Shown here: piece by piece, positions 5,512 to 20,358 of the stretch
Position numbering within the stretch: the first letter of the stretch is position 1
How the letters are laid out: each line of letters begins with the position of its first letter
Assembly (NCBI GenBank): GCA_964606455.1
Contig: CAZSGZ010000001.1
Coordinates: 1-53,079, forward strand
Direction of reading: 5' to 3'
From: an uncultured Spirochaetales bacterium
GTDB lineage: Bacteria > Spirochaetota > Spirochaetia > SPDA01 > CAZSGZ01
Length of the DNA stretch: 53,079 bases
Translations under genes and position numbers: made by a program
Notes under the pieces: generated by a model
What the model was told of the DNA's origin: nothing
Databases searched by the model: none
The model's input: the letters and a program-made list of their open reading frames with translations, nothing else

Positions 5512-5531
5512 TGCAAACAGAGGAGAAGCCC

Positions 5532-6272
5532 ATGGGAATGCTTCGTGTGGAAAATTTATCATTGTCCTTCGACGATAAAAAAATATTACAAAATGTCGAT
5601 ATAGATTTTTGGGACGGCCATATTCATGCCATCGTCGGGCCGAACGGCGCGGGGAAATCGACGCTGGCGCAGACAATTATGGGACTGCCGGAATATCTCG
5701 ACCATGATGGAAGGGTCATGTTCGGGAACGAGAATATATCCGATCTGCCGATTTATGAACGGGCAAAGCGGGGCATAACGCTGGCATGGCAGGAGCCGGC
5801 GAGGTTTACAGGTATTACCGTGGATGCGTTTTTGCAGGGCGCCGCGAAAAACGATCAGGCAGCGGTCATTGCAAACGCCCTCGAGAAGGTAGGCCTAGAA
5901 CCAAAACGCTATCTGTCCAGAGCGGTGGATAAAACCTTAAGCGGCGGAGAGCGGAAGCGGATTGAAGTGGCGTCGATTTTCGTGATGGAACCGAAGATCG
6001 TTTTAATGGATGAACCCGATTCCGGTATCGATACCGACGCCATTGAATATATTTTTCACATCATCCACGAATTCAAACAGCGGGGTACGACGGTCATACT
6101 CATTACCCACAGTGCCAGGGTCCTTCAGGAGGCTGATCATGCGTTCCTCCTCTGCCACGGGCGGGTAGTCGATCAGGGAACGGCGGAACGGATGAGCGCT
6201 TATTTCAAAGGGAAGTGTATTCCCTGTACCCATAAAAACAATCCGGACACACTAGAGGCGGAAAATGGGTAA
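5532..6272 (+). CDS. sufC: Fe-S cluster assembly ATPase SufC (SmsC-like)
   Basis: Walker A GPNGAGKST, ABC signature LSGGERKR and Walker B LMDEPDSGID are present. I prefer the ATG at 5532 (SD GGAG at 5522-5525) over the GTG at 5511, which overlaps the upstream stop codon. Confidence 0.88.
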   Translation: MGMLRVENLSLSFDDKKILQNVDIDFWDGHIHAIVGPNGAGKSTLAQTIMGLPEYLDHDGRVMFGNENISDLPIYERAKRGITLAWQEPARFTGITVDAFLQGAAKNDQAAVIANALEKVGLEPKRYLSRAVDKTLSGGERKRIEVASIFVMEPKIVLMDEPDSGIDTDAIEYIFHIIHEFKQRGTTVILITHSARVLQEADHAFLLCHGRVVDQGTAERMSAYFKGKCIPCTHKNNPDTLEAENG

Positions 6273-7194
6273 CGAACAGATAATCGAAGAAATGCTCGCG
6301 TCCATCCGGATGCATAAACACTTCGGACCGAACACGGCGCACGTGGAAATACACGGAAACAAGGTCCTTCAGTCGACCCTCGTCGAGGGGCTGACAATTG
6401 ACGCCGAGGAGCAGGACGAGGGAGTTTCCGCGCGGCTGCGGGTGGCCCCGGGAGTGAAACTCGAAAACCCCGTTCATCTCTGTTTCGGGATGATTCCGGA
6501 AAGTGGAATACAGCGGATTGAAATGGACATCGAAATAGGCGAGGAGGCAGAAGCGTCATTTCTTGCCCACTGTACATTCCCGAATGCTAAGGATGTAGAG
6601 CATTTGATGAATGCCGCTATCCGGGTAAAGAAAAACGGAAGATACTCCTATTTCGAGCGGCACGTACACGGCGACTACGGCGGCATTAAGGTAATTCCGA
6701 AGGCGGAAATAGTTCTCGAAGAAGGTGCGTACTTTTCCACCGAGTTCGAACTGCTGAAAGGACGGGTCGGGCTGATGGATATCGATTATGCAACGGTTTG
6801 TGAAGCATACAGTACCTTGGAGATGAAGGCCCGAATTAACGCTACCGGTAACGATATTGTAAAAATCCGGGAGGCGGGGAAATTAGTAGGTGAACACGCT
6901 AAGGGGGTGCTTATTTCCCACATTGCCCTGCGGGACAACTCCTATGCAGAGATTTACAACGACCTTTCCGCGGACGCTCCCTACGCGGTTGGCCATGTGG
7001 ACTGCAAGGAGATCGTGCAGGACAGCGCGGTGGCACGGGCGATACCGATTGTGCAGGTGAACAATCCGAAAGCGCATGTAACCCATGAAGCGGCGATCGG
7101 CAGTGTCGATTCAAAACAGCTGCAAACCCTCATGTCCCGGGGGCTGTCGGAGGATGACGCGGTGGAACTCATTATTCAGGGCCTCCTTTCGTAA
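6265..7194 (+). CDS. Short SufB/SufD-family Fe-S scaffold protein (SmsB-like, 309 aa)
   Basis: The C-terminal SufBD beta-helix block is present (GHVDCKEIV...NNPKAHVTHEAAIGSVDSKQLQTLMSRGLSEDDAVELII). The start overlaps the sufC stop by 8 nt (ATGGGTAA). Confidence 0.8.
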   Translation: MGNEQIIEEMLASIRMHKHFGPNTAHVEIHGNKVLQSTLVEGLTIDAEEQDEGVSARLRVAPGVKLENPVHLCFGMIPESGIQRIEMDIEIGEEAEASFLAHCTFPNAKDVEHLMNAAIRVKKNGRYSYFERHVHGDYGGIKVIPKAEIVLEEGAYFSTEFELLKGRVGLMDIDYATVCEAYSTLEMKARINATGNDIVKIREAGKLVGEHAKGVLISHIALRDNSYAEIYNDLSADAPYAVGHVDCKEIVQDSAVARAIPIVQVNNPKAHVTHEAAIGSVDSKQLQTLMSRGLSEDDAVELIIQGLLS

Positions 7195-8636: not shown

Positions 8637-10472
8637 ATGAAAAAACAATTACGCAGCGAAGTAAGTACAGAGGGACGAAGAATGGCCGGTGCGCGGAGCC
8701 TGTGGCGGGCAAACGGCATGAAACCGGAACATTTCGGGAAGCCGATATTCGGAATTGTCAATTCCTTTACCCAGTTTGTTCCGGGGCACGTGCATCTTCA
8801 TGAAATCGGTCAGGACTTGAAAAAAATTATCGAAGATGAAGGATATTTTGCCGCCGAATTCAATACCATAGCCATCGACGACGGGATTGCCATGGGGCAC
8901 GACGGAATGCTGTATTCACTTCCTTCCCGGGAGCTTATCGCCGACAGCGTGGAATATATGTGCAATGCCCACGGGATCGACGCACTGCTTTGTATCAGTA
9001 ACTGCGATAAAATTACACCGGGGATGATGATGGCGGCCATGCGCCTGAATATACCGGCAATTTTTGTCTCCGGCGGTCCAATGGAAGCCGGAGAAATTAA
9101 AGGAAAAAAGTACGATTTAATTGACGCAATGGTAATGAGCGCCGACGAAACCGTTTCCGATGATGAAGTGCAAGAGCTCGAAGAATCGGCGTGCCCTACC
9201 TGCGGCAGCTGTTCCGGTATGTTTACCGCGAATTCCATGAACTGCTTAAACGAGGCATTAGGCTTGGCCCTTCCGGGAAACGGCACCGTTGTGGCGACCC
9301 ACGTAAAACGGAAACTGCTCTTTGAAACGGCCGCCCGCCGTATCGTCCAAATGGCCAAACTGTACTATGACGAGGGGGATGAATCGGTCCTTCCCCGCTC
9401 GATAGCCTCGAAAAACGCGTTTATCAACGCCATGGCATTGGATATCGCCATGGGAGGTTCTACGAACACGGTCCTCCATCTGTTAGCCGTCGCGCGGGAG
9501 GCGGACGTCGATTTCAGCATGTCCGATATCGACGCGCTTTCCCGGAAAGTACCGAATATCTGTAAGGTTGCTCCGAGTTCGGCATATCATATCGAAGATG
9601 TAAACCGGGCAGGTGGGATCCATTCGATTTTAGGGGAACTCGACCGTGCCGGTTTGCTGAATACCGACGTCTGCCGGGTCGACGGCCTGCCCATGCCGGA
9701 AGCCCTGGACCGGTACGATCTCTCGAGGGTAAGTGTAAGCGAAGAAGCGGTGGAGCTCTACGAATGCGCGCCCGGAAGACGGGGAAGAAACCTGGCCCTG
9801 GGGTCTCAGAACGCGCGGTATGAGGAACTGGACAGAGACAGAAGCGGCGGTTGCATTCGGGATATCGACCACTGCTACAGCACCGAAGGCGGATTGGCGG
9901 TACTGTTCGGAAATATCGCGGAAAACGGCTGCATCGTGAAAACCGCCGGCGTGGATGAAGGAATGTTTACCTTTTCCGGACCGGCGCGGGTATATGAGTC
10001 CCAGGACGCGGCATGCGACGGCATCCTGACCGGCGAGGTGATGGAAGGCGACGTTGTGGTTATTATCTTCGAAGGGCCGAAGGGCGGTCCGGGTATGCAG
10101 GAGATGCTGTACCCCACATCGTATTTAAAATCGAGGCATTTGGGTTCAGCGTGCGCTCTCATGACGGACGGAAGGTTTTCAGGTGGAACATCCGGACTTT
10201 CCATCGGACATATTTCTCCCGAGGCCGCCGCCGGAGGTGCCGTGGGGCTGCTCCGTACCGGTGACAGGATCGAAATCGATATTTCGAAGCGGAGCATCAA
10301 TGTAAAAATTGACCCGGAGGAACTGGAAACCAGGCGGAACGAAGAGCTGCGGCGGGGAAAAAAGGCTTTTACGCCCCGCGGCCGGAACAGGATTGTCTCG
10401 AATTCGCTGAAAATATACGCTGAACATGCTTCTTCCGCGGATACAGGGGCTGTACGGATAATAGATGAGTAA
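8637..10472 (+). CDS. ilvD: Dihydroxy-acid dehydratase
   Basis: Typical IlvD sequence ([51 protein letters not shown]). The ATG at 8637 follows SD GGAGACGGAGGA. Confidence 0.95.
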
Positions 10473-10493
10473 AAAACTTATTGAAAATCACTA

Positions 10494-10522
10494 TTGACAA
10501 GGAATATGCTCTATTATATCAT
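10494..10522 (+). promoter_or_regulatory. Sigma70-type promoter of the YeeE/TusA/TrxR operon
   Basis: TTGACA (10494-10499), 17-nt spacer, TATCAT (10517-10522). It lies about 55 nt upstream of the ATG at 10579. Confidence 0.55.
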
Positions 10523-10578
10523 CGAACCGACCTATTATTAGATATTTTAGAGTTAAAGAAGTTTATAAGGAGTCTTGT

Positions 10579-11319
10579 ATGAGCGACACAGCAGATAATG
10601 CCGCTACCGCCGCTGAAAATACAGGCGGAGGGGCCGGGTCAGGGACATCTTCAATTAGAAGAAGTTCTTCAAGTTCGAGGAGCAAGAAGAAGAAGAAAAA
10701 TCAGCTTCCCTTCGGCTTTTTGTCTTTCATCGTTCTTATTGCCGTCGGAATCCTGCTGCTGACCTTTTCCCAGCAGCTTGGTCTTTTTTGGTTTCTCGGT
10801 CTTGCCTTCGGGTTCATCCTGCAGAAGGCCCGTTTCTGTTTCACGGCCTCACTGCGTGATCCGTATTTAACCGGAGGTACAAACCTTACAAAGGCGGTAC
10901 TCATTGCCTTCGCGATTACGTCAATTGGTTTTACGGCCATAAAGTACGGTGCGGCATCGAGGGGACTGCCGATTCCCGGCATGAGCTATGTCGTTCCCGT
11001 AAGCGGAGCTACGGCTGTCGGCGCCTTTATGTTCGGAATCGGAATGGTTATTTCCGGAGGATGCGCGTCGGGAACGCTCATGCGTGTGGGGGAGGGCTTT
11101 ACCATGCAGATGCTTTCCATTGTCTTTTTTATTGCGGGTTCCCTGTGGGGGGCGCATGACTTTGGTTTTTGGAAATATAACGTCATCTTGCGGGGCAAAG
11201 CGGTCTTCCTTCCGGATGTTTTCGGCTGGATGGGGGCGATTGCAATTCAGCTTGTATTTATTGCCTTCCTTTTTGTTATGGCCGACAGGTGGGCAAACAG
11301 AAAACAACAGGAAAGTTAA
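10579..11319 (+). CDS. YeeE/YedE-family sulfur (thiosulfate) transporter, N-terminal half, with Ser/Lys-rich N-terminal extension
   Basis: Polytopic membrane protein. Conserved Cys motifs are ARFCFTA and SGGCASGTLMR. SD AAGGAG lies 7 nt upstream of the start. Confidence 0.85.
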   Translation: MSDTADNAATAAENTGGGAGSGTSSIRRSSSSSRSKKKKKNQLPFGFLSFIVLIAVGILLLTFSQQLGLFWFLGLAFGFILQKARFCFTASLRDPYLTGGTNLTKAVLIAFAITSIGFTAIKYGAASRGLPIPGMSYVVPVSGATAVGAFMFGIGMVISGGCASGTLMRVGEGFTMQMLSIVFFIAGSLWGAHDFGFWKYNVILRGKAVFLPDVFGWMGAIAIQLVFIAFLFVMADRWANRKQQES

Positions 11320-11361
11320 TAAAGTATTATTAATAAAAATTTTTAGTAGAAGGAGAAAAAA

Positions 11362-11589
11362 ATGGCAGAATTTGAACTTGATTGCTACGGCGAAGCTTGT
11401 CCGGTACCGTTGGTAAAGGCGCAGAACAAACTAAAGGAAATGGCTGTTAATGATGTTCTTATTGTACAGATCGATCACAGCTGTGCCATGAAAAATGTAC
11501 CTGAATGGGCGCGAAAAGAGGGACACAACGTCGAAGTTGAAGAAATTGATGACGGCGAATGGGAAGTTATCATCGAAAAACTGAAATAA
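11362..11589 (+). CDS. TusA/YeeD-like sulfurtransferase (SirA family)
   Basis: 75 aa. The active-site CPxP motif (GEACPVPLVKA) is near the N-terminus. Strong SD GAAGGAGA. Confidence 0.88.
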   Translation: MAEFELDCYGEACPVPLVKAQNKLKEMAVNDVLIVQIDHSCAMKNVPEWARKEGHNVEVEEIDDGEWEVIIEKLK

Positions 11590-11607
11590 CAATCGGGAGG
11601 TCCGATT

Positions 11608-12141
11608 TTGAAAATTCGGGAAACGAAATTCTATAATGAATGGTTTAAGCAGGCGTGGCCCTATGTAACCGGGGCGGTTTTGCTCTCTTTGTTTCAAATT
11701 GTGACCCTGGCAAGTACCGGAAATCCATGGGGGGTTTCCGGTGTTTTCGCCAATTGGGGGGCATGGATCTACCGTGCATTCGGCGGCTCAGTCGATAAAT
11801 GGTATTATTTTGCAAGCGACGGGGCCCAGGCAACACTCAATGCCGGTTTTCTTCGTGACCCAGGCACAATGCGAAATTTAGGGATAATTTTCGGCGCCCT
11901 CATGGCTACGCTTTTAGCATCTCAGTTTAAGATTAAAAAATTGAAATCCTGGAAACAGGTAATTGCGGCCGTATTAGGCGGACTGCTGATGGGCTACGGG
12001 GCAAGGATCGGGTTCGGTTGTAATATCGGTGCTCTTTACAGCGGTATTTCATCACTTTCTCTTTCCGGATGGGCTTACGCCCTCTTCCTGTTTCTTGGAG
12101 CGATAATCGGCAGCAAACTGCTGGTTAAATATTTTATGTAA
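11608..12141 (+). CDS. YeeE/YedE-family sulfur transporter, C-terminal half
   Basis: 177-aa membrane protein with the GFGCNIGALYSG motif. TTG start at 11608 follows SD GGGAGG (11595-11600). Confidence 0.82.
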   Translation: MKIRETKFYNEWFKQAWPYVTGAVLLSLFQIVTLASTGNPWGVSGVFANWGAWIYRAFGGSVDKWYYFASDGAQATLNAGFLRDPGTMRNLGIIFGALMATLLASQFKIKKLKSWKQVIAAVLGGLLMGYGARIGFGCNIGALYSGISSLSLSGWAYALFLFLGAIIGSKLLVKYFM

Positions 12142-12158
12142 CGAAAGCGGAGTTAAAA

Positions 12159-13394
12159 ATGGCACGAGAAAAAAAAGTTGAACAGTACGATGTTGTGATA
12201 ATCGGCGGCGGCGCCGGCGGACTTACCGCCGGAATTTACTGCGGCCGGGCACAGCTGAAAACAATTATTATTGAAAAAGCGCTGGTAGGAGGTCTTGCCA
12301 CCTACACGAACGAGATTGAAAACTATCCGGGTTTTCCGGAAGGGTCCACCGGTCTCGGCCTTATGGAGCTTTTTCAGAAGCAGGCAAAAAAATTCGGCGT
12401 CGATTTCAAATTGACGGACGTTAAAACCGTCGATCTTAAAGGTGAAGTAAAGGTTGTCGAAACTTTCCGGAACCGGTACGAGGCAAAGGTAGTAATTATA
12501 GCTACCGGCGGACGGCCCCGGGTTACCAATGCCCAGGATGAGGAGAAATATCTCTTTGACAAGGGTATTTCTTTCTGCGCCACGTGCGACGCCGCGGCGA
12601 ATACGGGAAAAGAGGTTATGGTCATCGGTTCAGGTGACGCCGCGATTGAAGAAGGAATGTTCCTGACGAAGTTCGCGAAAAAGGTGTACGTTTCCGTTAT
12701 GCACGACACCGGTAAAATGGACTGTAACGAAATTGCGCGGGACGAGGCGTTAAAAAACGAGAAGATGGAATTTCTCTGGAATACCGTGGTACAACGGTTT
12801 GAAGGGGAAGACCACCTGGAACGGGTAGTACTGAAAAACCTTAAAACCGGCAACGAGGAACCCGTTACCGTCGACACATGTTTTGAGTTTATCGGATATC
12901 TTCCCAACTCGGAACTGCTCGAAGGACAGGTAAACATTACCGAAAAAGGATATGTCGAGGTCAACGAGCGGATGGAAACCAACGTCGAAGGTGTTTTCTC
13001 CGTAGGCGATATTAACGATAAATTTTTAAAACAGGTCGCGACGGCTGTCGGTGACGGAGCGATCGCGGGATACGGAGCCGAAAAATACATCGCGGAAACC
13101 GAGGTTTTTCACAGTCAGGTTATGCGGCATGACATGCCCGTGGCGGCATTTGTTTTCGATGCATCATGTTCTAACTGCAGGGAAAAGCTGCCCGTAATGG
13201 AATATGTGGAGAAAGAAAGCAACGGACGCTACAAGGTCGTGAAAATCGATGTGTACAAGTCGAGAGGCTTAGCAGACCGACTAAAAATTAAAAAGTTCCC
13301 CACCGTAGCGATTATTAAAGACGGTCAAATAGAAACAATCATCGAAGACAAGAACATCACGGAATCATCCGTGCTTTCCAAACTATTAGCGTAA
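12159..13394 (+). CDS. Thioredoxin-reductase-like flavoprotein fused to a C-terminal thioredoxin-fold domain
   Basis: FAD motif IIGGGAGGLTAG, redox CATC (FCATCDA), second dinucleotide motif GSGDAAIEEG, GD motif FSVGD. The C-terminal ~100 aa has Trx-like CSNC and FPTVAIIKDG. Confidence 0.85.
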   Translation: MAREKKVEQYDVVIIGGGAGGLTAGIYCGRAQLKTIIIEKALVGGLATYTNEIENYPGFPEGSTGLGLMELFQKQAKKFGVDFKLTDVKTVDLKGEVKVVETFRNRYEAKVVIIATGGRPRVTNAQDEEKYLFDKGISFCATCDAAANTGKEVMVIGSGDAAIEEGMFLTKFAKKVYVSVMHDTGKMDCNEIARDEALKNEKMEFLWNTVVQRFEGEDHLERVVLKNLKTGNEEPVTVDTCFEFIGYLPNSELLEGQVNITEKGYVEVNERMETNVEGVFSVGDINDKFLKQVATAVGDGAIAGYGAEKYIAETEVFHSQVMRHDMPVAAFVFDASCSNCREKLPVMEYVEKESNGRYKVVKIDVYKSRGLADRLKIKKFPTVAIIKDGQIETIIEDKNITESSVLSKLLA

Positions 13395-13404
13395 AAAAGA
13401 GAAT

Positions 13405-13444
13405 AAAAAAAAAAGACCCCGAGAAATCGGGGTCTTTTTTTTTA
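13405..13444. terminator. Bidirectional rho-independent terminator between convergent operons
   Basis: 9-bp stem AGACCCCGA(13414-13422)/TCGGGGTCT(13427-13435) with a GAAA tetraloop, flanked by an A10 run upstream and a T9 run downstream. Confidence 0.9.
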
Positions 13445-13456
13445 TCTTCCAGGTTA

Positions 13457-14440
13457 CTATTGGACCACTTCGTAGCCTGCGTTTTTCCAGCCTAAGGGAT
13501 CGTTTGACGGCATCCCAATACCGCCCCGCAAACTGACGGCGTCGTAGCCTAAGAGCCGCAGGCCCGCAACGGTCTGTCCCGCAGTCTGTCCGGTGTAGCA
13601 GTAGGTGATAATTTTTTTGTCCTTCGGCAGGGAGCTGAAAGACTGTTCCATGCCCGCGCCCCATGGAATATTCGAGGCACCGGGAATGTGGCCTTCACCG
13701 TAATGTTGAGCGCTCCGGATTGAAAGGATGTACACATCCTCGTCTTCATCGATCAGTTTTTTCAAGTTGTCTTCACTAATCATGTAATTTTTATAAATCG
13801 TGTCAGCGACTGCTGAAAAACCGGTGTAGTATTCTTTAATTGCCGAAAGAATGTCGGGGTGAATATTCGATCCTTCCGCGGGAAAATCATTCGGTGTTGT
13901 TTCAGTAATGGCTTCATACCCGTCGGCCCTTGAAATACCGTACACCCAGCCGAGATTCACGGAGTAAGCTTCGAAACCGGCAAGGTTCAAGAGCATGACG
14001 GTCTGTCCAGCGGTTTGCCCCGAATAGCAGTATACGTATACGGGCTTGCCGGAGGGGATCTTCGCGAATGCATCGCCTAAGGAAGGACCCCAGGACGCTA
14101 AGACAGCGCCTTTTGCGTGCCCTTTGTCGTACACATCCTGCTGCCGTATGTCGAGAATGAACATATCGTCGCCGTTTTTGACCTTTTCAATAAAATCTTT
14201 CTCGGGGATCTTGTAGTTGTGTCCCGGTTTGTTGGCGAAATATTCCATGACCCCTTCTTCGACGGGGTCTAACTGCGGTGCAGGTTCCTGCTCCGGCGCT
14301 TTTTCAGCCGTGCTTGCCGACTCCTCTTTTGTTTCCGTACCGGCCGCCGCTTTTTCTTCTTTATCACATGCAACGAAGAAAAGTGCGAAGGCGATCATGA
14401 GTACGGTAAGAAGAACTAATAATTTGTTCTTTTTAAACAT
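13457..14440 (-). CDS. Exported tandem-rhodanese lipoprotein (two catalytic rhodanese domains)
   Basis: Signal peptide plus lipobox (LFFVAC). Two active-site loops, VYCYSGQTAGQ and TYCYTGQTAGQ. Start set at MFKKNK (ATG 14440), with GGAGG 11 nt upstream. Confidence 0.8.
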   Translation of the reverse strand: MFKKNKLLVLLTVLMIAFALFFVACDKEEKAAAGTETKEESASTAEKAPEQEPAPQLDPVEEGVMEYFANKPGHNYKIPEKDFIEKVKNGDDMFILDIRQQDVYDKGHAKGAVLASWGPSLGDAFAKIPSGKPVYVYCYSGQTAGQTVMLLNLAGFEAYSVNLGWVYGISRADGYEAITETTPNDFPAEGSNIHPDILSAIKEYYTGFSAVADTIYKNYMISEDNLKKLIDEDEDVYILSIRSAQHYGEGHIPGASNIPWGAGMEQSFSSLPKDKKIITYCYTGQTAGQTVAGLRLLGYDAVSLRGGIGMPSNDPLGWKNAGYEVVQ

Positions 14441-14481
14441 AAAATCTAAAACCTCCATTTATTGATTTCTTATTTGTAGTA

Positions 14482-14510
14482 AATATATCAACTATTACCG
14501 AAAAAGGCAA
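14482..14510 (-). promoter_or_regulatory. Candidate sigma70-type promoter for the 13457-14440 rhodanese gene
   Basis: On the minus strand: TTGCCT (rc of 14505-14510), 17-nt spacer, TATATT (rc of 14482-14487). Confidence 0.45.
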
Positions 14511-14557
14511 GTGTAATGATATTAATTATCATCTGTTTCGGAACGGTCCCGTATCCC

Positions 14558-15466
14558 CTATGAACCGTCCTGGACCGTTGCCTGGACCTCTTCTCCCGAT
14601 GCACGGTATACCGGCAGCGAGCTGTCATCGGACCAGCCGAGCCATGCCGCGTCGTAAATTTTCAGGTTAGGATATCCCGCGTTGTACATGGCGAGAAACG
14701 TTTGTGCCGCACGGATCGAGGATTTGCAGTACATAATTGCCGTGTCCTCCGGTTTAATTCCGGCTTCCCGGTACAGGATACGTATCTGCCGTACGGGCCG
14801 GTATGTTCCGTCCTTGAAATTATTTGACGTGTAATTAATGTGAATCGATCCGGGAATCGTACCGTCGGTATATTCTTCCAAAGTACGGGTATCGATAATA
14901 CAGACATCCGGGTCGGGATCGTCGACTTGATTTTTCACGTCCCCCGTGGAGGCGATATATTCCTTATTTTTTACCGATATGGTGAAAGTCGCCGGCGTGG
15001 TGGCGACGCGGTCCGCGTTTGCTGAAAATCCAGCGGCTTCCAGCGCCTCGAGGCCGCCGCTTACAACTTTCGCCTTTGTGTGACCATAGACGAGAAGGGT
15101 CCACCACAGACGGGCGGCGTCCATATTGTTATTGTTGTCGTAAATAATTACCAGGGTTTCGTTGGAAATACCGCGGAGGCCAAGAATTTCCGCAATTTGC
15201 TGCGAAGACGCGAGCATATTCGGATACGGAGTGTTAACAACGATATGGGATCGGCTGATATTGACGGCCCCGTCGATATGTTTTTCCTTATAGTCCGTTG
15301 ACTGTTGTGTATCTACTAAAACGGTGTTAGCCTGTGATAGAAGTGTGGAAACATCTTCGGCGTCGACGATGTATTCTCCTTTCTGTTTTTCAGGATGACA
15401 GCCGATAAGTGCGGCAAATGAAATACTAATCAGTATCAATAAACAAGCACGGGCAATACGCTTCAC
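14558..15466 (-). CDS. Exported two-domain rhodanese (thiosulfate/3-mercaptopyruvate sulfurtransferase-like) lipoprotein
   Basis: GTG start at 15466 follows SD AAGGAGGA. Lipobox ALIGC. SseA-like two-domain layout with the catalytic loop MYCKSSIRAAQ in the C-terminal domain. Confidence 0.8.
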   Translation of the reverse strand: MKRIARACLLILISISFAALIGCHPEKQKGEYIVDAEDVSTLLSQANTVLVDTQQSTDYKEKHIDGAVNISRSHIVVNTPYPNMLASSQQIAEILGLRGISNETLVIIYDNNNNMDAARLWWTLLVYGHTKAKVVSGGLEALEAAGFSANADRVATTPATFTISVKNKEYIASTGDVKNQVDDPDPDVCIIDTRTLEEYTDGTIPGSIHINYTSNNFKDGTYRPVRQIRILYREAGIKPEDTAIMYCKSSIRAAQTFLAMYNAGYPNLKIYDAAWLGWSDDSSLPVYRASGEEVQATVQDGS

Positions 15467-15526
15467 GATAAATCCTCCTTAGTCTTTTATTTTTATCTTC
15501 TTGTATTTATAATCTGTCTAAACGGC

Positions 15527-17104
15527 ATGGTCAAGTGGCGAAAAGGGCATATAATAATAATCGTTTTCATCATTCTCTACTTTTTTGCTAATCTCCTGTT
15601 TATCGACCGCTTTCCTTTCGTCCATTCCGATGAAACCTGGCTCGCCGGGCTGTCCCGGTATATCCTGCACACGGGGAAACCGGGGCAGACGGAACCGTTT
15701 TTCGATTTGTATGAACGGCATCCCCACGGGCTTCGCGTCCTGTTTCAGGGACTGCAGATCGTAAGTATTAAGCTGTTCGGGTACTCCCTCCGTACCGTCA
15801 GGGGCCTTTCCCTGCTCTTTGCCGCGGCCGCTTTGTATGTGTACTACCGCCTTATTCTCGAAATGAACGGGCGGCGGGGGACAGCGTTTTTTTCCGTGCT
15901 GCTTCTCGCGTTCGGGATACAGTTTCTCTATGCCGGCCGGTTCGGGAGGCAGGAGAGCGTTCTTCTGTTCATTCACCTTCTGTCGCTCTATTTCTTTTTC
16001 AAATCCGTCCGTACCGGGTCAGCGGGGGGTGATGTTCTTGCCGGGACCTGTATTGGTGCCGCAGCGGGGGTACATCCGAACGCGTTCATTTTGCTGCTCC
16101 CTCTGCTGTTCCTGTATGCTTACAGAATCGCGCACTGCAGAGACAAAAAAATCCGAAATTTAATTTATTTTCTTCTTCCCGCCGCCGCCGGTGCCGCCGT
16201 ATTTGTCGGCTTGAGCCTCTATTTTGATCCCCGCTTTGTCCGGCATTACTTTTCCTACGGCAGCACCTTAGGGGTTGATACTTCCCTCTTTACGAAGATA
16301 CGGGCCGTTTCCGATTACTTCTACAAGCTGTTTTTTCAAATAAGCGGTACCTATTACACGCCTTGTATCCGGGTGGAACTGCTTCTCTTCTGCTGCGCCG
16401 GTACCGCGGGCCTCGGGTTTTTTATAGCCGCCCTTGCCGAAGGAAGAAGCACCGGGGACAGATACGCCGTTCCCGCGCAAATATTTCTGGTCCTTTTCGC
16501 GGTACTCGCGGGGATTGTCCTTATCGGCAGATACGGCCAGCCGAGCGTCATTTTCCTGTTTCCCTCGGCCCTGCTGCTCCTCGTGCGCATTCTGTCGATG
16601 CTTCTGAAACGGAAAGCGGTTTTCACGGGACTCCTTATCCTCATGCTGCTGCTGACCGTTGTATCATCAAGCCTGCAGATGCTGCCGTGGCTTGAGAAAA
16701 ACCATTACCGGCAGTACCTCTTAGCAGTAAGCCGGCATGTTCCGGGGGACGCCGTCGTCCTAGCCAATATCAACGCGGAGCCGGCATTTTTGCCGGGGAA
16801 TTTGTACGATTACCGGAACCTAACGTATCTGCGGGAACATGATATCTCCTTTCGGCAGTATATCGAGGAACGGAACATCGAATACATTGTTCTGCCGGAT
16901 GAGATGGAGGTTATTTACAACAGCCGGCCGGTGTGGAACATCATATACGGAAATATATGGCCCTATTATTCAGATATGCTCCGGTTTATTGCCGAAGATG
17001 CCGTGCCGGTCGGTGAGTTTTCCGCACCGGTGTATGCAATGCGGATAGTGCGGTATCAAAATACGGCACCCTGGAAAGTTCGGGTTTACAGGGTTTCTAA
17101 GTAG
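15527..17104 (+). CDS. GT-C fold membrane glycosyltransferase (family 39 / ArnT-PMT-like)
   Basis: 525 aa with about 11-13 hydrophobic helices. An acidic motif sits in the first loop (FVHSDETW) and there is a soluble C-terminal domain. No obvious SD. Confidence 0.6.
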   Translation: MVKWRKGHIIIIVFIILYFFANLLFIDRFPFVHSDETWLAGLSRYILHTGKPGQTEPFFDLYERHPHGLRVLFQGLQIVSIKLFGYSLRTVRGLSLLFAAAALYVYYRLILEMNGRRGTAFFSVLLLAFGIQFLYAGRFGRQESVLLFIHLLSLYFFFKSVRTGSAGGDVLAGTCIGAAAGVHPNAFILLLPLLFLYAYRIAHCRDKKIRNLIYFLLPAAAGAAVFVGLSLYFDPRFVRHYFSYGSTLGVDTSLFTKIRAVSDYFYKLFFQISGTYYTPCIRVELLLFCCAGTAGLGFFIAALAEGRSTGDRYAVPAQIFLVLFAVLAGIVLIGRYGQPSVIFLFPSALLLLVRILSMLLKRKAVFTGLLILMLLLTVVSSSLQMLPWLEKNHYRQYLLAVSRHVPGDAVVLANINAEPAFLPGNLYDYRNLTYLREHDISFRQYIEERNIEYIVLPDEMEVIYNSRPVWNIIYGNIWPYYSDMLRFIAEDAVPVGEFSAPVYAMRIVRYQNTAPWKVRVYRVSK

Positions 17105-19164
17105 GGAATAATGAGATTTTCTCCGGATTCTCCGATAATTTGTAAAACGGTAAAAACCGCGTCGATTTCCCGCCGGAGCGCCTTTCGCGACGAGGCATGG
17201 ACGATGAAAAACCCCGCGCGGGCGGTCGCGTTTTCGGTTTCTCCGATGCTGTCTCCTTCCCTCACGTGAAAGGCGGCGGCAACGACCGCCGGTAATCGGG
17301 TAACCGTCTTAAGCCCCCGCAGCTCCCGTACCGTGCCCGGTTTCGCGAAAAACAGCTGCGCCGACAGAAACATTCCTGGCTCCCTCCAGGTATAGCCGGG
17401 ATATGTTTCAACCCGGAAGGGCCTGCCGAGGACGGCGGAATAATTTGCTTTCAGAATATCGAAGCCGGTGCATACGGGCAGGAAAATTTCCTCATACGCC
17501 CCTCCTATTCGGCAGGCGATTTCGTTTACCCGTAATCCCCCGTCTCCCGTCAGGTACTGGAAGTAAATCGGCCCTTCCCGAATGCGGAATGCCGCGACGA
17601 TGTTGTTTGTAAGTGTTTCAATTTCATCCGCGAGCGCGGGAAGGTATTTGGAGGGGTACATGTGGGCCCTGCAGATACCGATATGGGGCCCCCGTTCAAA
17701 AGTTTCGCGGTCCGTTACCGAGAGGATCCGCGCGTGGCCGTTTGTTACCCAGCCGCTTACGGTAAGTTCATCGCTTGGATAATATTCCTCCACAATGATG
17801 TTCCGCTGCCGCGAGTAGCTGAGTACCTCCTCCATATGGTCCGGCACTTCTTCCGCCGACGAAAGTTTCAGCACCCCCCGCTGTCCCTGGCTGTCCGGTG
17901 GCTTTACGACAAGGGGGGGGCAAAGCTGCCGCAGCATGTCGAGGCAATCTGCGGACCCGGTTTCCACGGGAGAAGGAAGCAGCATCCAGGGGAGTGCCGG
18001 AATATCATTGGCGGCAAAAATGCGCTTCATTCTTCCCTTGTCGGTAACGTTTCGGGCAGTTTCGCTGTCAATGTATGACGGCAAACCGAGTTTTTCGGCA
18101 ACTGCCGCCATGGTAAGGACCGTCTGATCGGTGCCGGTTGTAATTACTCCATCCGGCTTAAGCCAGCTTGCGGCCTCGAGGGTTGCTTCGGGATAAAAGG
18201 CGTCGGCAGTAAGCGACGCGTCGGCGGCGGCCTTTCCCGGGGAAGTTACAAAGTAGTCCGAGGCAATGATAAAGTAGCCGAGCTCCTTTCCCCGCCGGAT
18301 AGGATTGATCTGATTGTTCCCGGAGCCGAGGAAGAGGATTTTTTTTCCCTCCACCGCGGTGTCCGGGGGCCGAGGCGGCAGGACTGTCCGGACGGTAAAC
18401 GGTTTCCCCTTCCGGCGGAAAAGCCGGAATCCGGGAATGCCGCTGTAGTATACGCAGAGGAGAAGAAACAAACGGACAAGCTTTCCAAAGGAGTATCTGC
18501 TCCGCTGCCGTTTCAACGCCGCCGCCGGAAAAGGAGCAGCCAGCGGGACCGACGTAATGTTTTGCGAAAAACGCAGAAGGGCGGCGGTAATGTAAATGAA
18601 GGGCTGTTCCGCCGGGTGTTCCGTAACGATGCGGTGGACGGTACTCCTGCCGGTAAGCCGGAAGCTTCCCGCTTTCACTCCCGGCGGCTTTCCGCAGCAC
18701 CGGGTAAAAAACAGGTCCGCCATGCCGCTCCCGGCTTTTCTAAACCCCTCCCTGAATCCGCGGCGCCGGGAGCCCCGCTGCTCCGGGGGGCTGCCGTATA
18801 TTCCGTACACGGCATCGGCGCCGGTTCGGACCAATTCCCGGTAGAGCCTTCCGATGTCGGCGGGATTGTGCCTAAGGTCGTCGTCGATGGTAGCGGCGTA
18901 TTCCTTGGTAACATACCCGAGACCGCAGAGCAGGGCATTCTGCTGTCCCCGGTTCTCCCCCAGCTTGATGACGGTACAGCAGGGAAGGCGCTCATGCAGC
19001 CGGGACAGAACGGAAAATGAGGCGTCGGTGCTTCCGTCATCTACAAAAATATATTCGTAGTTTTCCGTCAAACAGGGGACGGCTGCCGACAGCGCGGCAA
19101 GGACCGCTTCAATACTGTCGGCGCTGTTGTATACCGGAATAACGACAGAAAGGGAAGGAATCAT
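17086..19164 (-). CDS. Fusion protein: GT2 polyprenol-phosphate glycosyltransferase (GtrB/ArnC/DPM1-like), TM segment(s), ATP-grasp ligase domain
   Basis: The N-terminus has VVIPVYNS...VDDGSTD...IDDDLRHNP. A hydrophobic segment follows (LVRLFLLLCVYYSGIPGF). The C-terminal ~400 aa is ATP-grasp-like (KKILFLGSG...LVVKPPDSQGQRGV...IVEEY...NEIACRIGGA). Confidence 0.75.
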   Translation of the reverse strand: MIPSLSVVIPVYNSADSIEAVLAALSAAVPCLTENYEYIFVDDGSTDASFSVLSRLHERLPCCTVIKLGENRGQQNALLCGLGYVTKEYAATIDDDLRHNPADIGRLYRELVRTGADAVYGIYGSPPEQRGSRRRGFREGFRKAGSGMADLFFTRCCGKPPGVKAGSFRLTGRSTVHRIVTEHPAEQPFIYITAALLRFSQNITSVPLAAPFPAAALKRQRSRYSFGKLVRLFLLLCVYYSGIPGFRLFRRKGKPFTVRTVLPPRPPDTAVEGKKILFLGSGNNQINPIRRGKELGYFIIASDYFVTSPGKAAADASLTADAFYPEATLEAASWLKPDGVITTGTDQTVLTMAAVAEKLGLPSYIDSETARNVTDKGRMKRIFAANDIPALPWMLLPSPVETGSADCLDMLRQLCPPLVVKPPDSQGQRGVLKLSSAEEVPDHMEEVLSYSRQRNIIVEEYYPSDELTVSGWVTNGHARILSVTDRETFERGPHIGICRAHMYPSKYLPALADEIETLTNNIVAAFRIREGPIYFQYLTGDGGLRVNEIACRIGGAYEEIFLPVCTGFDILKANYSAVLGRPFRVETYPGYTWREPGMFLSAQLFFAKPGTVRELRGLKTVTRLPAVVAAAFHVREGDSIGETENATARAGFFIVHASSRKALRREIDAVFTVLQIIGESGENLIIPYLETL

Positions 19165-20354
19165 ATTTTTTTTCGAATAATAAAATTTTCACGTAAAGGT
19201 TTATCCGTTTCGATGTAAAAGTCCCGGCCGTGATGCGCTGCAGCGGTTTCTTCTCCCTCGGCGTCGAAGAGACGGAAGCCGCTGTCGGGAAGCGAGACCA
19301 TATCGGGGCCGATGTACTCGATAGTGTCTCCGGTATATATGCTGTTTTTTACCGAAAGAAGATACCGGCGGTCCCCGCATTGTTTCCGGACGGTCCCCAA
19401 CAGGAGGTGTGTTCTAATATAGGACCTCCTCGCCGGGCGTTCAATTTCATCGGTACCGAAGTAAAACCCCGTCGAATATTCACGGTGGCTGATGTGAAAC
19501 AGTTCTTCCCGGTACGCTTCCAGATCGGGAACGTTCCGGTCGAAAACGACGGAATCGATCATCTTCCGGTATGCCCGGGTAACAACTGCGGTATAGTAGA
19601 CGGATTTCATTCTCCCTTCGATTTTCACCGAATCGAGGCCGCTGTCCCGCAGTTCGGATATGTAATCGATCATGCAGAGGTCTTTCGAGCTTAAAATCGT
19701 GGTATATCCGTCCTCTTCGATTACCGGATAATATTCCCCGGGCCGTTCCGATTCCTCCATCAGCCGGTACTCCCAGCGGCAGGAATGGGCGCAGTCTCCC
19801 GCGTTTCCGGAACGTCCCGCCATATAGGCACTTAAAAAACAGCGTCCCGAGTAGGCAAGGCACATGGCGCCGTGGACAAATCCTTCCAGTTCAACATCCG
19901 GGACGGCGTTTTTTATTGCCTCAATTTCTTTCAGGGAAACTTCCCTTCCGACAATAATTCTCGAAAAACCGAGGTCCCGGTACAGCTTCGCGGCTTCTCC
20001 GTTTACACAGTTTGCCTGGGTGCTTACATGGAGCCGGATGCCGGGAAAATGGTTTTTTAGAAGGGGGACAATGCCGATATCGGAAATAATGAATGCGTCG
20101 AAGGGGTAGGCGGCGATCTCATCCAGGGAAGCCTCGAGTTTCCGCAGGTCATCCTGATGGAAATAAATATTCAAGGCGCAGTAGAGTTTTTTATTTCCCT
20201 TCAAGGCCCTTATCGCGGCGGCGTCGCCCCGTGTAAAATTGTCCGCCTTCGATCGGAGCGAGAAATTGGAAAGACCGATATACGCCGCGTCGGCGCCGTA
20301 GGCGTAGGCGTAATACAGCTTTTCCACATTACCGGCGGGGGACAGCAGTTCCAT
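19161..20354 (-). CDS. Peptidase U32-family protein (RlhA/TrhP/PrtC-like)
   Basis: U32 signature EGFVHGAMCLAYSGRCFLS plus CAHSCRW. Start trimmed to MELLSPAG (ATG 20354). The stop overlaps the start of the downstream GT2 fusion (ATGA). Confidence 0.85.
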   Translation of the reverse strand: MELLSPAGNVEKLYYAYAYGADAAYIGLSNFSLRSKADNFTRGDAAAIRALKGNKKLYCALNIYFHQDDLRKLEASLDEIAAYPFDAFIISDIGIVPLLKNHFPGIRLHVSTQANCVNGEAAKLYRDLGFSRIIVGREVSLKEIEAIKNAVPDVELEGFVHGAMCLAYSGRCFLSAYMAGRSGNAGDCAHSCRWEYRLMEESERPGEYYPVIEEDGYTTILSSKDLCMIDYISELRDSGLDSVKIEGRMKSVYYTAVVTRAYRKMIDSVVFDRNVPDLEAYREELFHISHREYSTGFYFGTDEIERPARRSYIRTHLLLGTVRKQCGDRRYLLSVKNSIYTGDTIEYIGPDMVSLPDSGFRLFDAEGEETAAAHHGRDFYIETDKPLRENFIIRKKI

Positions 20355-20358
20355 TGAA

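What the first reader, a model, noticed from the sequence alone, without database searches (positions are those of the whole stretch)
10494..15466. Compact sulfur-trafficking island: split YeeE with TusA between the halves, a dedicated TrxR-Trx fusion, and two exported tandem-rhodanese lipoproteins
Seen: one consensus promoter (TTGACA-N17-TATCAT) drives four tightly spaced genes. These are a YeeE N-half (Cys in RFCFT and GGCASG), TusA/YeeD (CPVP), a YeeE C-half (GFGCNIG, TTG start) and a TrxR-Trx fusion. A perfect bidirectional terminator separates them from two convergent genes. Each convergent gene encodes a lipobox-bearing protein with two rhodanese domains (active loops CYSGQTAG, CYTGQTAG, CKSSIRA). 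Established: YeeE plus YeeD (TusA-like) mediate thiosulfate uptake and were characterised structurally in a Spirochaeta species, where three conserved Cys residues are essential. The three Cys motifs here are distributed 2+1 over the two halves. Inference: the layout reads as a complete relay. Periplasmic rhodanese lipoproteins handle thiosulfate or sulfane sulfur, the split channel imports it, TusA accepts it, and a private disulfide reductase regenerates TusA or releases sulfide. To my knowledge that six-gene combination has not been described as a unit. It sits 3 kb from a SufC/SufBD pair with no cysteine desulfurase in the window and directly after the Fe-S enzyme IlvD, so it may feed Fe-S assembly. 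That link is speculative.
Basis: partly seen in the sequence, partly recalled or inferred. Interest (0 to 1): 0.7.

Follow-up and report, generated by a model that had tools for sequence, protein, structure and literature searches.

The report
Split YeeE–TusA–reductase sulfur-import operon
A thiosulfate-type sulfur channel encoded as two half-genes with its helper protein between them, followed by a dedicated flavin reductase, is a real gene unit conserved in hundreds of anaerobic bacteria, and it offers a candidate for the unknown electron supply of this uptake pathway.

Summary
All six ORFs, the Cys motifs, the promoter-like site and the bidirectional terminator are at the stated coordinates. 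The two halves map onto the N- and C-halves of Spirochaeta thermophila YeeE and model as one YeeE fold.

The operon is not peculiar to this genome. N-half, TusA, C-half and the TrxR-like gene keep the same order in about 87-100% of well-flanked loci, and 443 GTDB species encode an N-half relative. These span Spirochaetia, Clostridia, Halanaerobiales and Calditrichales.

Three corrections are needed.
- The "Trx" domain has a CxxC only in this lineage; most homologues have none. The reductase also lacks the NADPH arginine motif.
- The exported rhodanese pair is present in only about 40% of loci.
- The conserved island is larger. About 89% of loci also carry an ArnT-like GT-C membrane protein, an ArnC-like GT2 or an ATP-grasp ligase. 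Many also have a WecE-like aminotransferase, an SsuA-type ABC importer and a LysR regulator.

The Suf/IlvD link has no support. The best reading is import of thiosulfate or sulfane sulfur, with TusA-bound sulfur resolved by the reductase. Selenium uptake is a weaker rival. I rate it a new variant of a known kind.

The parts
10494..10522 (+). Sigma-70-like promoter TTGACA-N17-TATCAT, 57 nt upstream of the A start codon
   Evidence: 11 of 12 matches; sequence. This is a consensus match only; function was not shown.
10579..11319 (+). A: N-half of a split YeeE/TsuA-type channel. It carries an extra N-terminal TM helix and a conserved basic cytoplasmic tail (SIRRS..RKKKKNQLP). Cys87 and Cys162 correspond to StYeeE C22 and C91.
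   Evidence: Sulf_transp positions 1-158, 97.5 bits; aligns to 6LEO residues 7-119; about 2000 half-size homologues; both Cys present in 74/74.
11362..11589 (+). B: TusA/YeeD-like sulfur carrier. The catalytic Cys13 (CPVP) is accompanied by two further conserved Cys (C8, C41) that StYeeD lacks.
   Evidence: TusA, 84.5 bits; aligns to StYeeD in 8K1R/8J4C. C13 and C41 in 93/93, C8 in 89/93; lies between the halves in 71/78 loci, duplicated in 17.
11608..12141 (+). C: C-half of the split channel, with a TTG start. Cys138 (GFGCNIG) corresponds to StYeeE C293.
   Evidence: Sulf_transp positions 164-310, 122.8 bits; aligns to 6LEO residues 223-320. Cys in 63/63. Shine-Dalgarno sequence GGGAGG.
12159..13394 (+). 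D: low-Mr TrxR-like flavoprotein with an invariant CATC and extra invariant Cys189 and Cys241. The NADPH motif HRRxxxR is replaced by HDTxxxD. A C-terminal Trx-fold domain has CSNC here but usually no Cys.
   Evidence: TIGR01292, 318 bits, cutoff 343; alignment to 2Q7V. Cys conservation; homologues always follow A-TusA-C.
13406..13443 (.). Bidirectional intrinsic terminator between the convergent D and E genes
   Evidence: The sequence is AAAAAAAAAGACCCCGA-TTTC-TCGGGGTCTTTTTTTTT. Rfam matches at this site are all below gathering score.
13457..14458 (-). E: exported protein with two active rhodanese domains (Cys144, Cys287). It has a signal peptide and an FVAC lipobox.
   Evidence: both active Cys in 26/26; a signal peptide in all 29 homologues. 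The lipobox-position Cys is present in 10 of 26 aligned homologues, and a stricter lipobox pattern matches 11 of 29.
14558..15466 (-). F: lipoprotein of TST/3-MST-like architecture, with an inactive N-domain and an active C-domain (Cys247, CKSSIRA). The lipobox is LIGC.
   Evidence: NF008557, 97.6 bits, below cutoff; lipobox Cys in 30/30 and active Cys in 30/30.
15527..17104 (+). PMT_2/ArnT-like GT-C membrane protein, divergent from F. It is a recurrent member of the wider island.
   Evidence: PMT_2, 36 bits; homologue within 8 kb in 42-47 of 80 loci; no NCBIfam or PDB sequence hit.
17086..19164 (-). Fusion of an ArnC-like GT2 and an ATP-grasp (L-amino-acid-ligase-like) protein. The two are separate adjacent genes in most other loci.
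   Evidence: domains. ATP-grasp and GT2 each present in about 70% of well-flanked loci. The same fusion occurs in L001 and L020.

Best explanation
A and C assemble into a heterodimeric YeeE/TsuA-type channel. It brings thiosulfate, or a related sulfane-sulfur species, across the cytoplasmic membrane.

B docks on the cytoplasmic face as YeeD/TsuB does and takes the sulfur on Cys13. One of its two extra conserved Cys then resolves the adduct. This releases sulfide (and sulfite if the substrate is thiosulfate) and leaves an oxidised TusA.

D is a specialised TrxR-like flavoenzyme, probably NADH-linked. It re-reduces TusA, either directly or, in this lineage, through its CSNC Trx-fold domain.

E and F act outside the membrane in the lineages that have them. 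They capture or convert thiosulfate or polysulfide sulfur for the channel.

Shown: gene content, motifs, fold, export signals and conservation of the linkage. Inferred: substrate, direction of sulfur flow, the TusA-D redox couple, and whether the sulfide serves assimilation or disposal of reducing equivalents.
For: Channel:
- Half-to-half alignment with StYeeE includes all three functional Cys.
- The AF2 model of A+C has pLDDT 84.8 and pTM 0.85. It hits only the StYeeE structures: E about 1e-10, TM 0.60-0.72.
- Natural single-chain homologues exist with the same half order.

TusA:
- B aligns to StYeeD over its whole length with the catalytic Cys.

Linkage of the reductase:
- A-B-C-D order is kept in 57 of 64 loci with enough downstream sequence. 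D is never found without B: B+D+ 57, B-D- 6, B+D- 1, B-D+ 0.
- Three D homologues chosen independently all follow A-TusA-C.
- In six Clostridium loci that lack B and D, a fused YeeE paralogue sits next to a CoADR-rhodanese fusion. That is again a channel plus a flavin disulfide reductase.

Other points:
- Ikei et al. 2024 (PMC11073785) state that the electron route for YeeD-dependent thiosulfate decomposition is unknown and that acceptor proteins remain to be found.
- Tandem TusA copies in 17 of 78 loci suggest high flux.
- Export signals and active-site Cys of E and F are conserved.
Against: - No experiment supports any step.
- A and C score below every curated TsuA cutoff, and slightly higher against the selenium YedE/FdhT model.
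- The Trx-fold domain lacks redox Cys in most homologues, so a classical TrxR-to-Trx relay cannot be the general mechanism.
- C. tetani and one Fusibacter locus have A-TusA-C without D.
- The rhodaneses are absent from about 60% of loci.
- The constant glycosylation-type and ABC neighbours are not explained by this model.
- From textbook redox potentials (my own knowledge), NADH-driven thiosulfate cleavage is uphill unless the sulfite is removed.
Confidence: 0.6

Rival explanations
1. Selenium uptake. The split channel is a YedE/FdhT-type selenium importer, B is a YedF/FdhU-like carrier, and D reduces selenite or a selenotrisulfide to selenide for SelD.
For: - The best NCBIfam hit for A (101.9 bits) and C (96.5 bits) is selen_YedE_FdhT. 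B scores nearly the same on YedF (44.6) as on TsuB (48.6).
- The LysR regulator of the clostridial islands scores best on the selenium-metabolism-associated LysR model (196 bits).
- YedE, YedF and LysR_Se were linked to selenium use by comparative genomics (PMC5322559).
- Thioredoxin systems are known to reduce selenite (my own knowledge).
Against: - All these scores are below the curated cutoffs of 350, 110 and 250.
- B is a single TusA domain without the DsrE-like domain described for YedF (PMC5322559).
- No recurrent neighbour resembles the Sec or selenophosphate machinery.
- No homologue has TGA in place of any conserved Cys in the 80 loci.
- Tandem TusA copies and a near-consensus promoter suggest bulk flux rather than trace flux.
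- The three Cys of thiosulfate-transporting YeeE are conserved.
- The Sao-type ABC hits only reflect membership of the nitrate/sulfonate/taurine transporter group (preprint 10.1101/2022.07.06.499078).
Confidence: 0.13
2. Sulfur supply for an envelope glycoconjugate. The channel, TusA and reductase serve the co-located pathway of WecE-like aminotransferase, ATP-grasp ligase, ArnC-like GT2 and ArnT-like GT-C. They would either provide sulfur for a thiol- or sulfur-bearing lipid-linked amino sugar, or work with such a surface thiol and the rhodaneses to mobilise external sulfur.
For: - 41 of 46 well-flanked loci have at least one of PMT-like, ATP-grasp or GT2 within 8 kb. Gene order and orientation differ between lineages, which argues for selection on proximity.
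- GT2 and ATP-grasp are fused in the window, L001 and L020.
- The WecE-like protein passes the curated cutoff (495 bits against 375).
- The rhodanese genes usually lie next to the PMT-like gene.
- E gives a weak hit to an NCBIfam rhodanese family named for its position near glycosyltransferases.
Against: - No enzyme in the island is an obvious sugar-thiolating enzyme.
- Four Sediminispirochaeta loci, L058 and C. tetani have the channel core without the glycosylation genes.
- The chemistry is conjecture. The PMT-like protein has only a weak Pfam hit and no hit in the PDB sequence search.
Confidence: 0.15
3. Loose neighbourhood. The four-gene operon is a unit, but the two rhodaneses are merely adjacent periplasmic enzymes, for example for detoxification, with no role in the import pathway.
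For: - They are on the opposite strand behind a strong terminator.
- They are present in only about 40% of loci.
- E is missing from the 97%-identical sister contig L001.
Against: - Where present they are always directly next to D, A or the PMT-like gene. This holds in both spirochaetes and clostridia and in several arrangements.
- In most spirochaete loci they are co-directional, immediately after D.
Confidence: 0.2
4. Fe-S assembly feeder. The island supplies sulfide to the nearby SufC/SufBD-like pair, replacing a cysteine desulfurase.
For: - A SufC-like gene and a SufB/D/SmsB-like gene lie about 3.4 kb upstream, and no desulfurase is in the window.
Against: - Suf adjacency is seen only in the near-identical contig L001.
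- IlvD adjacency is seen in 5 of the 80 fetched loci, all spirochaetes, with other genes in between.
- Both Suf-like proteins are below the curated cutoffs.
Confidence: 0.03

Closest known systems
YeeE(TsuA)-YeeD(TsuB) thiosulfate uptake system of E. coli and Spirochaeta thermophila (PDB 6LEO, 8J4C, 8K1R; PMC7449682, PMC11073785)
   Same: - Same fold (TM 0.60-0.72).
- The same three Cys positions.
- An adjacent single-domain TusA-family partner with the same catalytic Cys.
   Different: - The channel is encoded as two genes with the TusA gene between them.
- The N-half has an extra TM helix and a conserved basic tail.
- TusA has two additional conserved Cys.
- A dedicated TrxR-like reductase is co-encoded.
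- Scores are far below the TsuA and TsuB equivalog cutoffs.
PmpA/PmpB half-size YeeE/YedE proteins (Serratia; discussed in PMC11582611)
   Same: - Two separate polypeptides correspond to the N- and C-halves of YeeE.
- They are proposed to form a heterodimer.
   Different: - PmpAB are about 130 aa, with four TM helices and one Cys each, and do not cover the central helix.
- Here the halves are 246 and 177 aa, and the N-half keeps both the C22 and C91 equivalents.
- TusA and a reductase are part of the operon here.
YedE/FdhT-YedF/FdhU selenium-linked proteins (PMC5322559)
   Same: - Same superfamily.
- The highest NCBIfam scores for A and C.
- A TusA-type partner and a related LysR regulator.
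   Different: - Below cutoff.
- The halves match the model in swapped order (C to positions 2-159, A to 177-385).
- The partner lacks the DsrE-like domain.
- No selenium genes are nearby.
Low-Mr thioredoxin reductases and natural TrxR-Trx fusions (NTRC; the Mycobacterium leprae fusion is from my own knowledge)
   Same: - FAD/NAD(P)H two-domain TrxR core with a CATC redox centre.
- 270 bits to Deinococcus TrxR 2Q7V.
- A C-terminal Trx-fold domain.
   Different: - The HRRxxxR NADPH motif is lost.
- There are two extra invariant Cys.
- The Trx-fold domain has no WCGPC and usually no Cys at all.
- Just under the TIGR01292 cutoff (318 against 343).
CoADR-rhodanese / NAD(P)H persulfide-polysulfide reductases next to a fused YeeE paralogue (seen here in L019 and relatives)
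   Same: - A YeeE-family channel is paired with a pyridine-nucleotide disulfide reductase and an SsuA-type ABC set.
   Different: - A different reductase family, with the rhodanese fused to it.
- The channel is a single chain lacking the first Cys.
- No TusA.

Membership tests
YeeE/TsuA thiosulfate transporter | Pfam PF04143 (Sulf_transp) domain above gathering score | tested here: met
   A scores 97.5 bits and C scores 122.8 bits against a cutoff of 27. Together they cover profile positions 1-158 and 164-310.
YeeE/TsuA thiosulfate transporter | Passes the NCBIfam TsuA equivalog models (NF052577, NF041049) | tested here: not met
   73.1 + 54.5 bits against a cutoff of 400, and 57.1 + 24.2 bits against 645.
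YeeE/TsuA thiosulfate transporter | Three conserved Cys equivalent to StYeeE C22, C91 and C293 | tested here: met
   Alignments to 6LEO. These Cys are invariant in 74/74 and 63/63 homologues.
YeeE/TsuA thiosulfate transporter | YeeE fold (pseudo-symmetric hourglass of re-entrant loops) | tested here: met
   The concatenated A+C model has pLDDT 84.8. Foldseek gives probability 1.0 and TM 0.60-0.72 to 6LEO, 6LEP, 8J4C and 8K1R, and nothing else below E 1e-3. Caveat: the two chains were modelled as one chain.
YeeE/TsuA thiosulfate transporter | Single polypeptide of about 330-350 aa with nine TM helices | tested here: not met
   There are two genes of 246 and 177 aa separated by the TusA gene. 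This split is conserved in 71/78 loci.
YeeE/TsuA thiosulfate transporter | Transports thiosulfate | not testable with these tools
   This needs complementation or a liposome assay.
YeeD/TsuB (TusA family) | TusA domain with the catalytic Cys in CPxP, encoded next to the channel | tested here: met
   Pfam TusA 84.5 bits. B aligns to StYeeD with Cys13 matching C17. The NF041048 cutoff is not reached (48.6 against 147.5).
YedE/FdhT selenium membrane protein | Passes NF033796 or TIGR04112 | tested here: not met
   101.9 and 96.5 bits against a cutoff of 350, with the halves in swapped order. TIGR04112 gives 26 bits against 200.
YedE/FdhT selenium membrane protein | Genomic association with selenium-utilisation genes | tested here: not met
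   None of the annotated recurrent neighbour clusters in the 80 loci is a selenium gene. No Sec codon replaces a conserved Cys. Whole-genome selD co-occurrence could not be tested.
PmpAB half-size YeeE proteins | About 130 aa, four TM helices, one conserved Cys per half | tested here: not met
   The halves are 246 and 177 aa. The N-half has two conserved Cys and extra helices (PMC11582611).
Low-Mr thioredoxin reductase | TIGR01292 equivalog score; CxxC redox centre; HRRxxxR NADPH motif | tested here: inconclusive
   318.2 bits against a cutoff of 343.45. CATC is invariant in 60/60. HRRxxxR is replaced by HDTxxxD.
TrxR-Trx fusion (NTRC type) | C-terminal thioredoxin with a conserved redox CxxC | tested here: not met
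   The window has CSNC, but across 60 homologues the two positions are mostly Asp (47) and Ser (38).
Tandem-domain rhodanese (TST/3-MST type), protein F | Inactive N-domain plus active C-domain with a catalytic Cys | tested here: met
   Two Pfam rhodanese domains, and Cys247 is invariant in 30/30. The 3-MST equivalog cutoff is not met (97.6 against 250).
Bacterial lipoprotein, proteins E and F | Signal peptide ending in a lipobox Cys | tested here: met
   F: LIGC, with the Cys conserved in 30/30. E: FVAC here, but only about 10 of 26 homologues keep the Cys; the rest look like SPase I substrates. This is rule-based; SignalP and LipoP were not available.

The most novel reading that the evidence does not exclude
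The four-gene operon may be the cytoplasmic-membrane core of a larger, undescribed island of about 12-15 genes in fermentative anaerobes. In this reading, a lipid-linked N-aminoacyl amino sugar is made by the WecE-like aminotransferase, the ATP-grasp ligase and the ArnC-like GT2. The ArnT-like GT-C places it outside the membrane. There it works with exported rhodaneses to mobilise external thiosulfate, polysulfide or elemental sulfur. The split YeeE then imports the sulfur, and a TusA/NADH-reductase couple releases it as sulfide. This would be a new route of sulfur uptake or of disposing of reducing equivalents.
Probability: 0.15. Interest if true: 0.85.

Novelty: new variant of a known kind. 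Interest (0 to 1): 0.6.

Why it matters
The YeeE-YeeD pathway is the only structurally understood thiosulfate channel. Its authors state that the source of electrons, and the acceptors of the sulfur bound to YeeD, are unknown (PMC11073785).

A reductase gene that follows the channel and TusA genes in hundreds of species, and that is lost together with TusA, is a concrete candidate for that missing step. It can be tested with purified proteins.

The split arrangement, together with single-chain relatives in which the halves occur in both orders, also bears on how this transporter family was assembled from half-units.

The unexplained but very constant pairing with a lipid-linked amino-sugar pathway and an SsuA-type importer points to a larger function that current annotation misses. 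Current records call these genes "YeeE/YedE family protein" and "FAD-dependent oxidoreductase". The host organisms are common in sulfidic sediments, mats and oil-field waters.

Tried and rejected
- The single-sequence AF2 model of concatenated A+C was unusable (pLDDT 48.9).
I replaced it with natural fused homologues from a protein search.
- Rfam search of 10300-15700 gave only sub-threshold matches on the terminator hairpin and no leader or riboswitch.
- The PMT-like protein had no hit in the PDB sequence search or in NCBIfam.
- Literature searches combining YeeE/YeeD with thioredoxin reductase, glycosyltransferase or the host genera found no description of this gene set.
- The Sao-type ABC hits looked like a selenium clue. 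They turned out to denote a "selenocysteine-assisted organometallic" system of the same general transporter group, so I dropped them as evidence.
- A search for Sec (TGA) variants of the conserved Cys found none.
- The Fe-S (Suf) link was rejected for lack of conservation.
- A frameshift or pseudogene origin of the split was rejected because the split, with TusA inside it, is conserved across phyla.

Full report
**1. What is in the window**

The six ORFs exist exactly as described.
- A: 10579-11319 +, 246 aa.
- B: 11362-11589 +, 75 aa.
- C: 11608-12141 +, 177 aa, TTG start preceded by GGGAGG.
- D: 12159-13394 +, 411 aa.
- E: 13457-14458 -, 333 aa.
- F: 14558-15466 -, 302 aa.

Gaps within A-D are 42, 18 and 17 nt.

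Pfam assigns A to positions 1-158 and C to positions 164-310 of the Sulf_transp profile. B is TusA. D is a pyridine-nucleotide disulfide oxidoreductase plus a Thioredoxin domain. E and F each have two rhodanese domains.

The TTGACA-17-TATCAT site (10494-10522, 11 of 12) and the A-tract/GC-stem/T-tract hairpin (13406-13443) are present. A second 11/12 promoter-like match lies over the start of C, so these matches are suggestive only. Rfam finds no leader element.

**2. The split channel**

A aligns to S. thermophila YeeE residues 7-119, including C22 (RFCFT) and C91 (GGCASG). C aligns to residues 223-320, including C293 (GFGCNIG).

All three Cys are invariant in the homologues collected: 74/74, 74/74 and 63/63.

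A model of A (from residue 38) joined to C used an alignment that includes natural single-chain relatives. It reached pLDDT 84.8 and pTM 0.85, with low confidence only at the artificial junction. Its only significant structural neighbours are the four StYeeE entries: E about 1e-10, probability 1.0, TM 0.60-0.72. The caveat is that the two chains were modelled as one.

Compared with StYeeE, A has an additional N-terminal TM helix and a conserved basic tail, SIRRS...RK(P/K)KKNQ(L/I)P.

**3. Conservation**

The N-half has about 2000 half-size relatives at E < 1e-10. They are 60-75% identical across Spirochaetia, Clostridia, Halanaerobiales and others. 443 GTDB species encode one.

In 80 fetched loci the order A - TusA - C - D is kept at 60-80% identity. 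Presence among 46 loci with at least 6 kb on both sides:

| Gene | Present |
|---|---|
| C | 100% |
| B | 91% |
| D | 87% |
| F | 43% |
| E | 39% |

TusA lies between the halves in 71 of 78 loci and is tandemly duplicated in 17.

B and D co-vary: B+D+ 57, B-D- 6, B+D- 1, B-D+ 0. The six B-D- loci are one Clostridium lineage.

Three D homologues picked from a separate protein search all sit directly after A-TusA-C.

C. tetani has A-TusA-C, a LysR gene and a fused paralogue, but no D.

**4. The reductase**

D is closest to ordinary low-Mr TrxRs, at 270 bits to 2Q7V. It falls just under the TIGR01292 cutoff.

CATC is invariant. So are two unusual Cys, at positions 189 and 241.

In the alignment to 2Q7V the NADPH-binding HRRxxxR is replaced by HDTxxxD (family consensus HDEGKMDC). 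This removes the arginines that hold the 2'-phosphate. My inference is that D prefers NADH.

The C-terminal Trx-fold domain has CSNC here and CSKC or CSNC in the closest relatives. In 60 homologues the two positions are mostly Asp and Ser. The family is therefore not a classical TrxR-Trx relay.

B has two conserved Cys besides the catalytic one, C8 and C41, which are absent from StYeeD. I propose that B itself is the dithiol substrate of D.

Ikei et al. report that YeeD decomposes thiosulfate through Cys-bound intermediates. They state that the electron route and the downstream acceptors are unknown (PMC11073785).

**5. The rhodaneses**

F-type proteins keep the lipobox Cys (30/30) and the active-site Cys (30/30). 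E-type proteins keep both active-site Cys (26/26) and always have a signal peptide. Only about 10 of 26 keep a lipobox Cys. Export is therefore well supported for both. Lipidation is well supported for F, and for E in this genome.

In most spirochaete loci the order is D, F, E on one strand. Here the F-E block is inverted.

The 97%-identical contig L001 retains only the last 13 codons of E.

**6. A larger island**

Clustering all ORFs of the 80 loci shows further recurrent neighbours.
- A PMT_2/ArnT-like GT-C protein (window 15527-17104).
- An ArnC-like GT2 and an L-amino-acid-ligase-like ATP-grasp protein. These are fused in the window at 17086-19164.
- A WecE-like dTDP-4-amino-4,6-dideoxygalactose transaminase (495 bits, above cutoff).
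- Sometimes RmlA and RmlB.
- An SsuA/NMT1-type ABC importer.
- A LysR regulator, with a second TusA-like gene divergent from it.

41 of 46 well-flanked loci have at least one of the three glycosylation-type genes. Order and orientation differ between lineages. The link is therefore maintained rather than simply inherited as one block.

I cannot explain this link.

Six Clostridium loci lack B and D. They instead carry a fused YeeE paralogue next to a CoADR-rhodanese fusion and a second ABC set.

**7. Sulfur or selenium**

A, C, the LysR regulator and, marginally, B score best or nearly best on selenium-associated NCBIfam models. All are well below cutoff.

Several observations argue against selenium.
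- No selenium gene recurs nearby.
- No Sec variants exist.
- B lacks the DsrE-like domain of YedF (PMC5322559).
- TusA is often duplicated.
- The YeeE Cys triad is conserved.
- The Sao hits are uninformative.

Many host genera are known thiosulfate or sulfur reducers (my own knowledge). Booker et al. describe rhodanese-based thiosulfate reduction as an electron sink in Halanaerobium (PMC5497025). I therefore leave open whether the sulfide is assimilated or is a fermentation sink.

**8. Suf/IlvD**

The upstream pair is SufC-like (189.6 bits against a cutoff of 212.8) and weakly SufB/D/SmsB-like. Neither it nor IlvD is a recurrent neighbour. The proposed Fe-S link is unsupported.

**9. Verdict**

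The feature is real and strongly conserved.
- The channel and TusA belong to a known kind of system.
- Split YeeE-family genes are known as PmpAB, but in a different and smaller form (PMC11582611).
- I found no description of the TusA-in-the-middle split, the dedicated NADPH-motif-less TrxR-like partner, the three-Cys TusA, or the constant glycosylation and ABC neighbourhood.

I rate it a new variant of a known kind, with interest 0.6.

Noticed in passing
window 15527-19164; loci L004, L005, L010, L011, L083, L084: A recurrent gene set surrounds the sulfur operon in about 89% of well-flanked loci, in varying order. It comprises an ArnT/PMT_2-like GT-C protein, an ArnC-like GT2, an ATP-grasp amino-acid-ligase-like protein (fused to the GT2 in the window), a WecE-like aminotransferase, RmlA/RmlB, an SsuA-type ABC importer and a LysR regulator. 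The function of the association is unknown.
   Followed up: partly
window 10579-11319 and 11608-12141; L019:9339-10661: The NCBIfam YedE/FdhT model matches the halves in swapped order: the C-half matches model positions 2-159 and the N-half matches 177-385. The same holds for the natural fused 440-aa paralogue. The selenium-type proteins therefore appear to have the two half-units in the opposite order to YeeE.
   Followed up: partly
window 12159-13394 (residues 176-189 and 241): The TrxR-like protein has HDTxxxDC where TrxRs have HRRxxxR. It also has two extra Cys (189, 241) that are invariant in 59-60 of 60 homologues. Their role is unknown.
   Followed up: partly
L001:10810-10950 compared with window 13394-14558: The 97%-identical sister contig lacks gene E except for its last 13 codons, while F is intact. 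This is either a recent deletion or a MAG assembly artefact.
   Followed up: no
L019, L022, L044, L047, L057, L059 (about 9300-14500): One Clostridium lineage has A and C adjacent without TusA or the reductase. These are followed by a fused 440-aa YeeE paralogue, a 566-572-aa CoA-disulfide-reductase-rhodanese fusion and a second SsuA-type ABC set.
   Followed up: partly
alignment A3 (fused homologues P0121-P0240): Single-chain relatives of 417-446 aa are widespread in Clostridia and some Bacilli (C. tetani, C. bifermentans, Thermoactinomyces). They have Gly in place of the first channel Cys (RFGFAGG instead of RFCFTAS).
   Followed up: no
window 19161-20411 (-): A U32-family protein scores best on the TrhP tRNA-uridine hydroxylase model (317 bits, below cutoff). 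It is a neighbour of the operon in the window and in 5 of the 80 fetched loci (L001, L010, L048, L053, L062), all spirochaetes.
   Followed up: no
window 5511-7194 (+): The SufC-like ATPase (189.6 bits, cutoff 212.8) is followed by a short 309-aa SufB/D-like protein. The best hit of the latter, though weak, is the minimal SUF-like protein SmsB.
   Followed up: partly
window 11608-11637 (+): A second 11/12 sigma-70-like match (TTGAAA-18-TATAAT) overlaps the TTG start of gene C. It could be an internal promoter or a chance match in AT-rich sequence.
   Followed up: no
window 13457-14458 (residues 32-65 of E): After the lipobox, E has a low-complexity Ala/Glu/Thr/Pro/Ser-rich linker. Homologues have similar linkers. 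Given the adjacent PMT-like GT-C gene, it could be a glycosylation target. This is conjecture only.
   Followed up: no
window 1152-3239 (+): A 695-aa protein has an N-terminal DUF255/Thioredox_DsbH domain (252 bits). It is another thiol-redox protein in the window and is not a recurrent neighbour of the operon.
   Followed up: no
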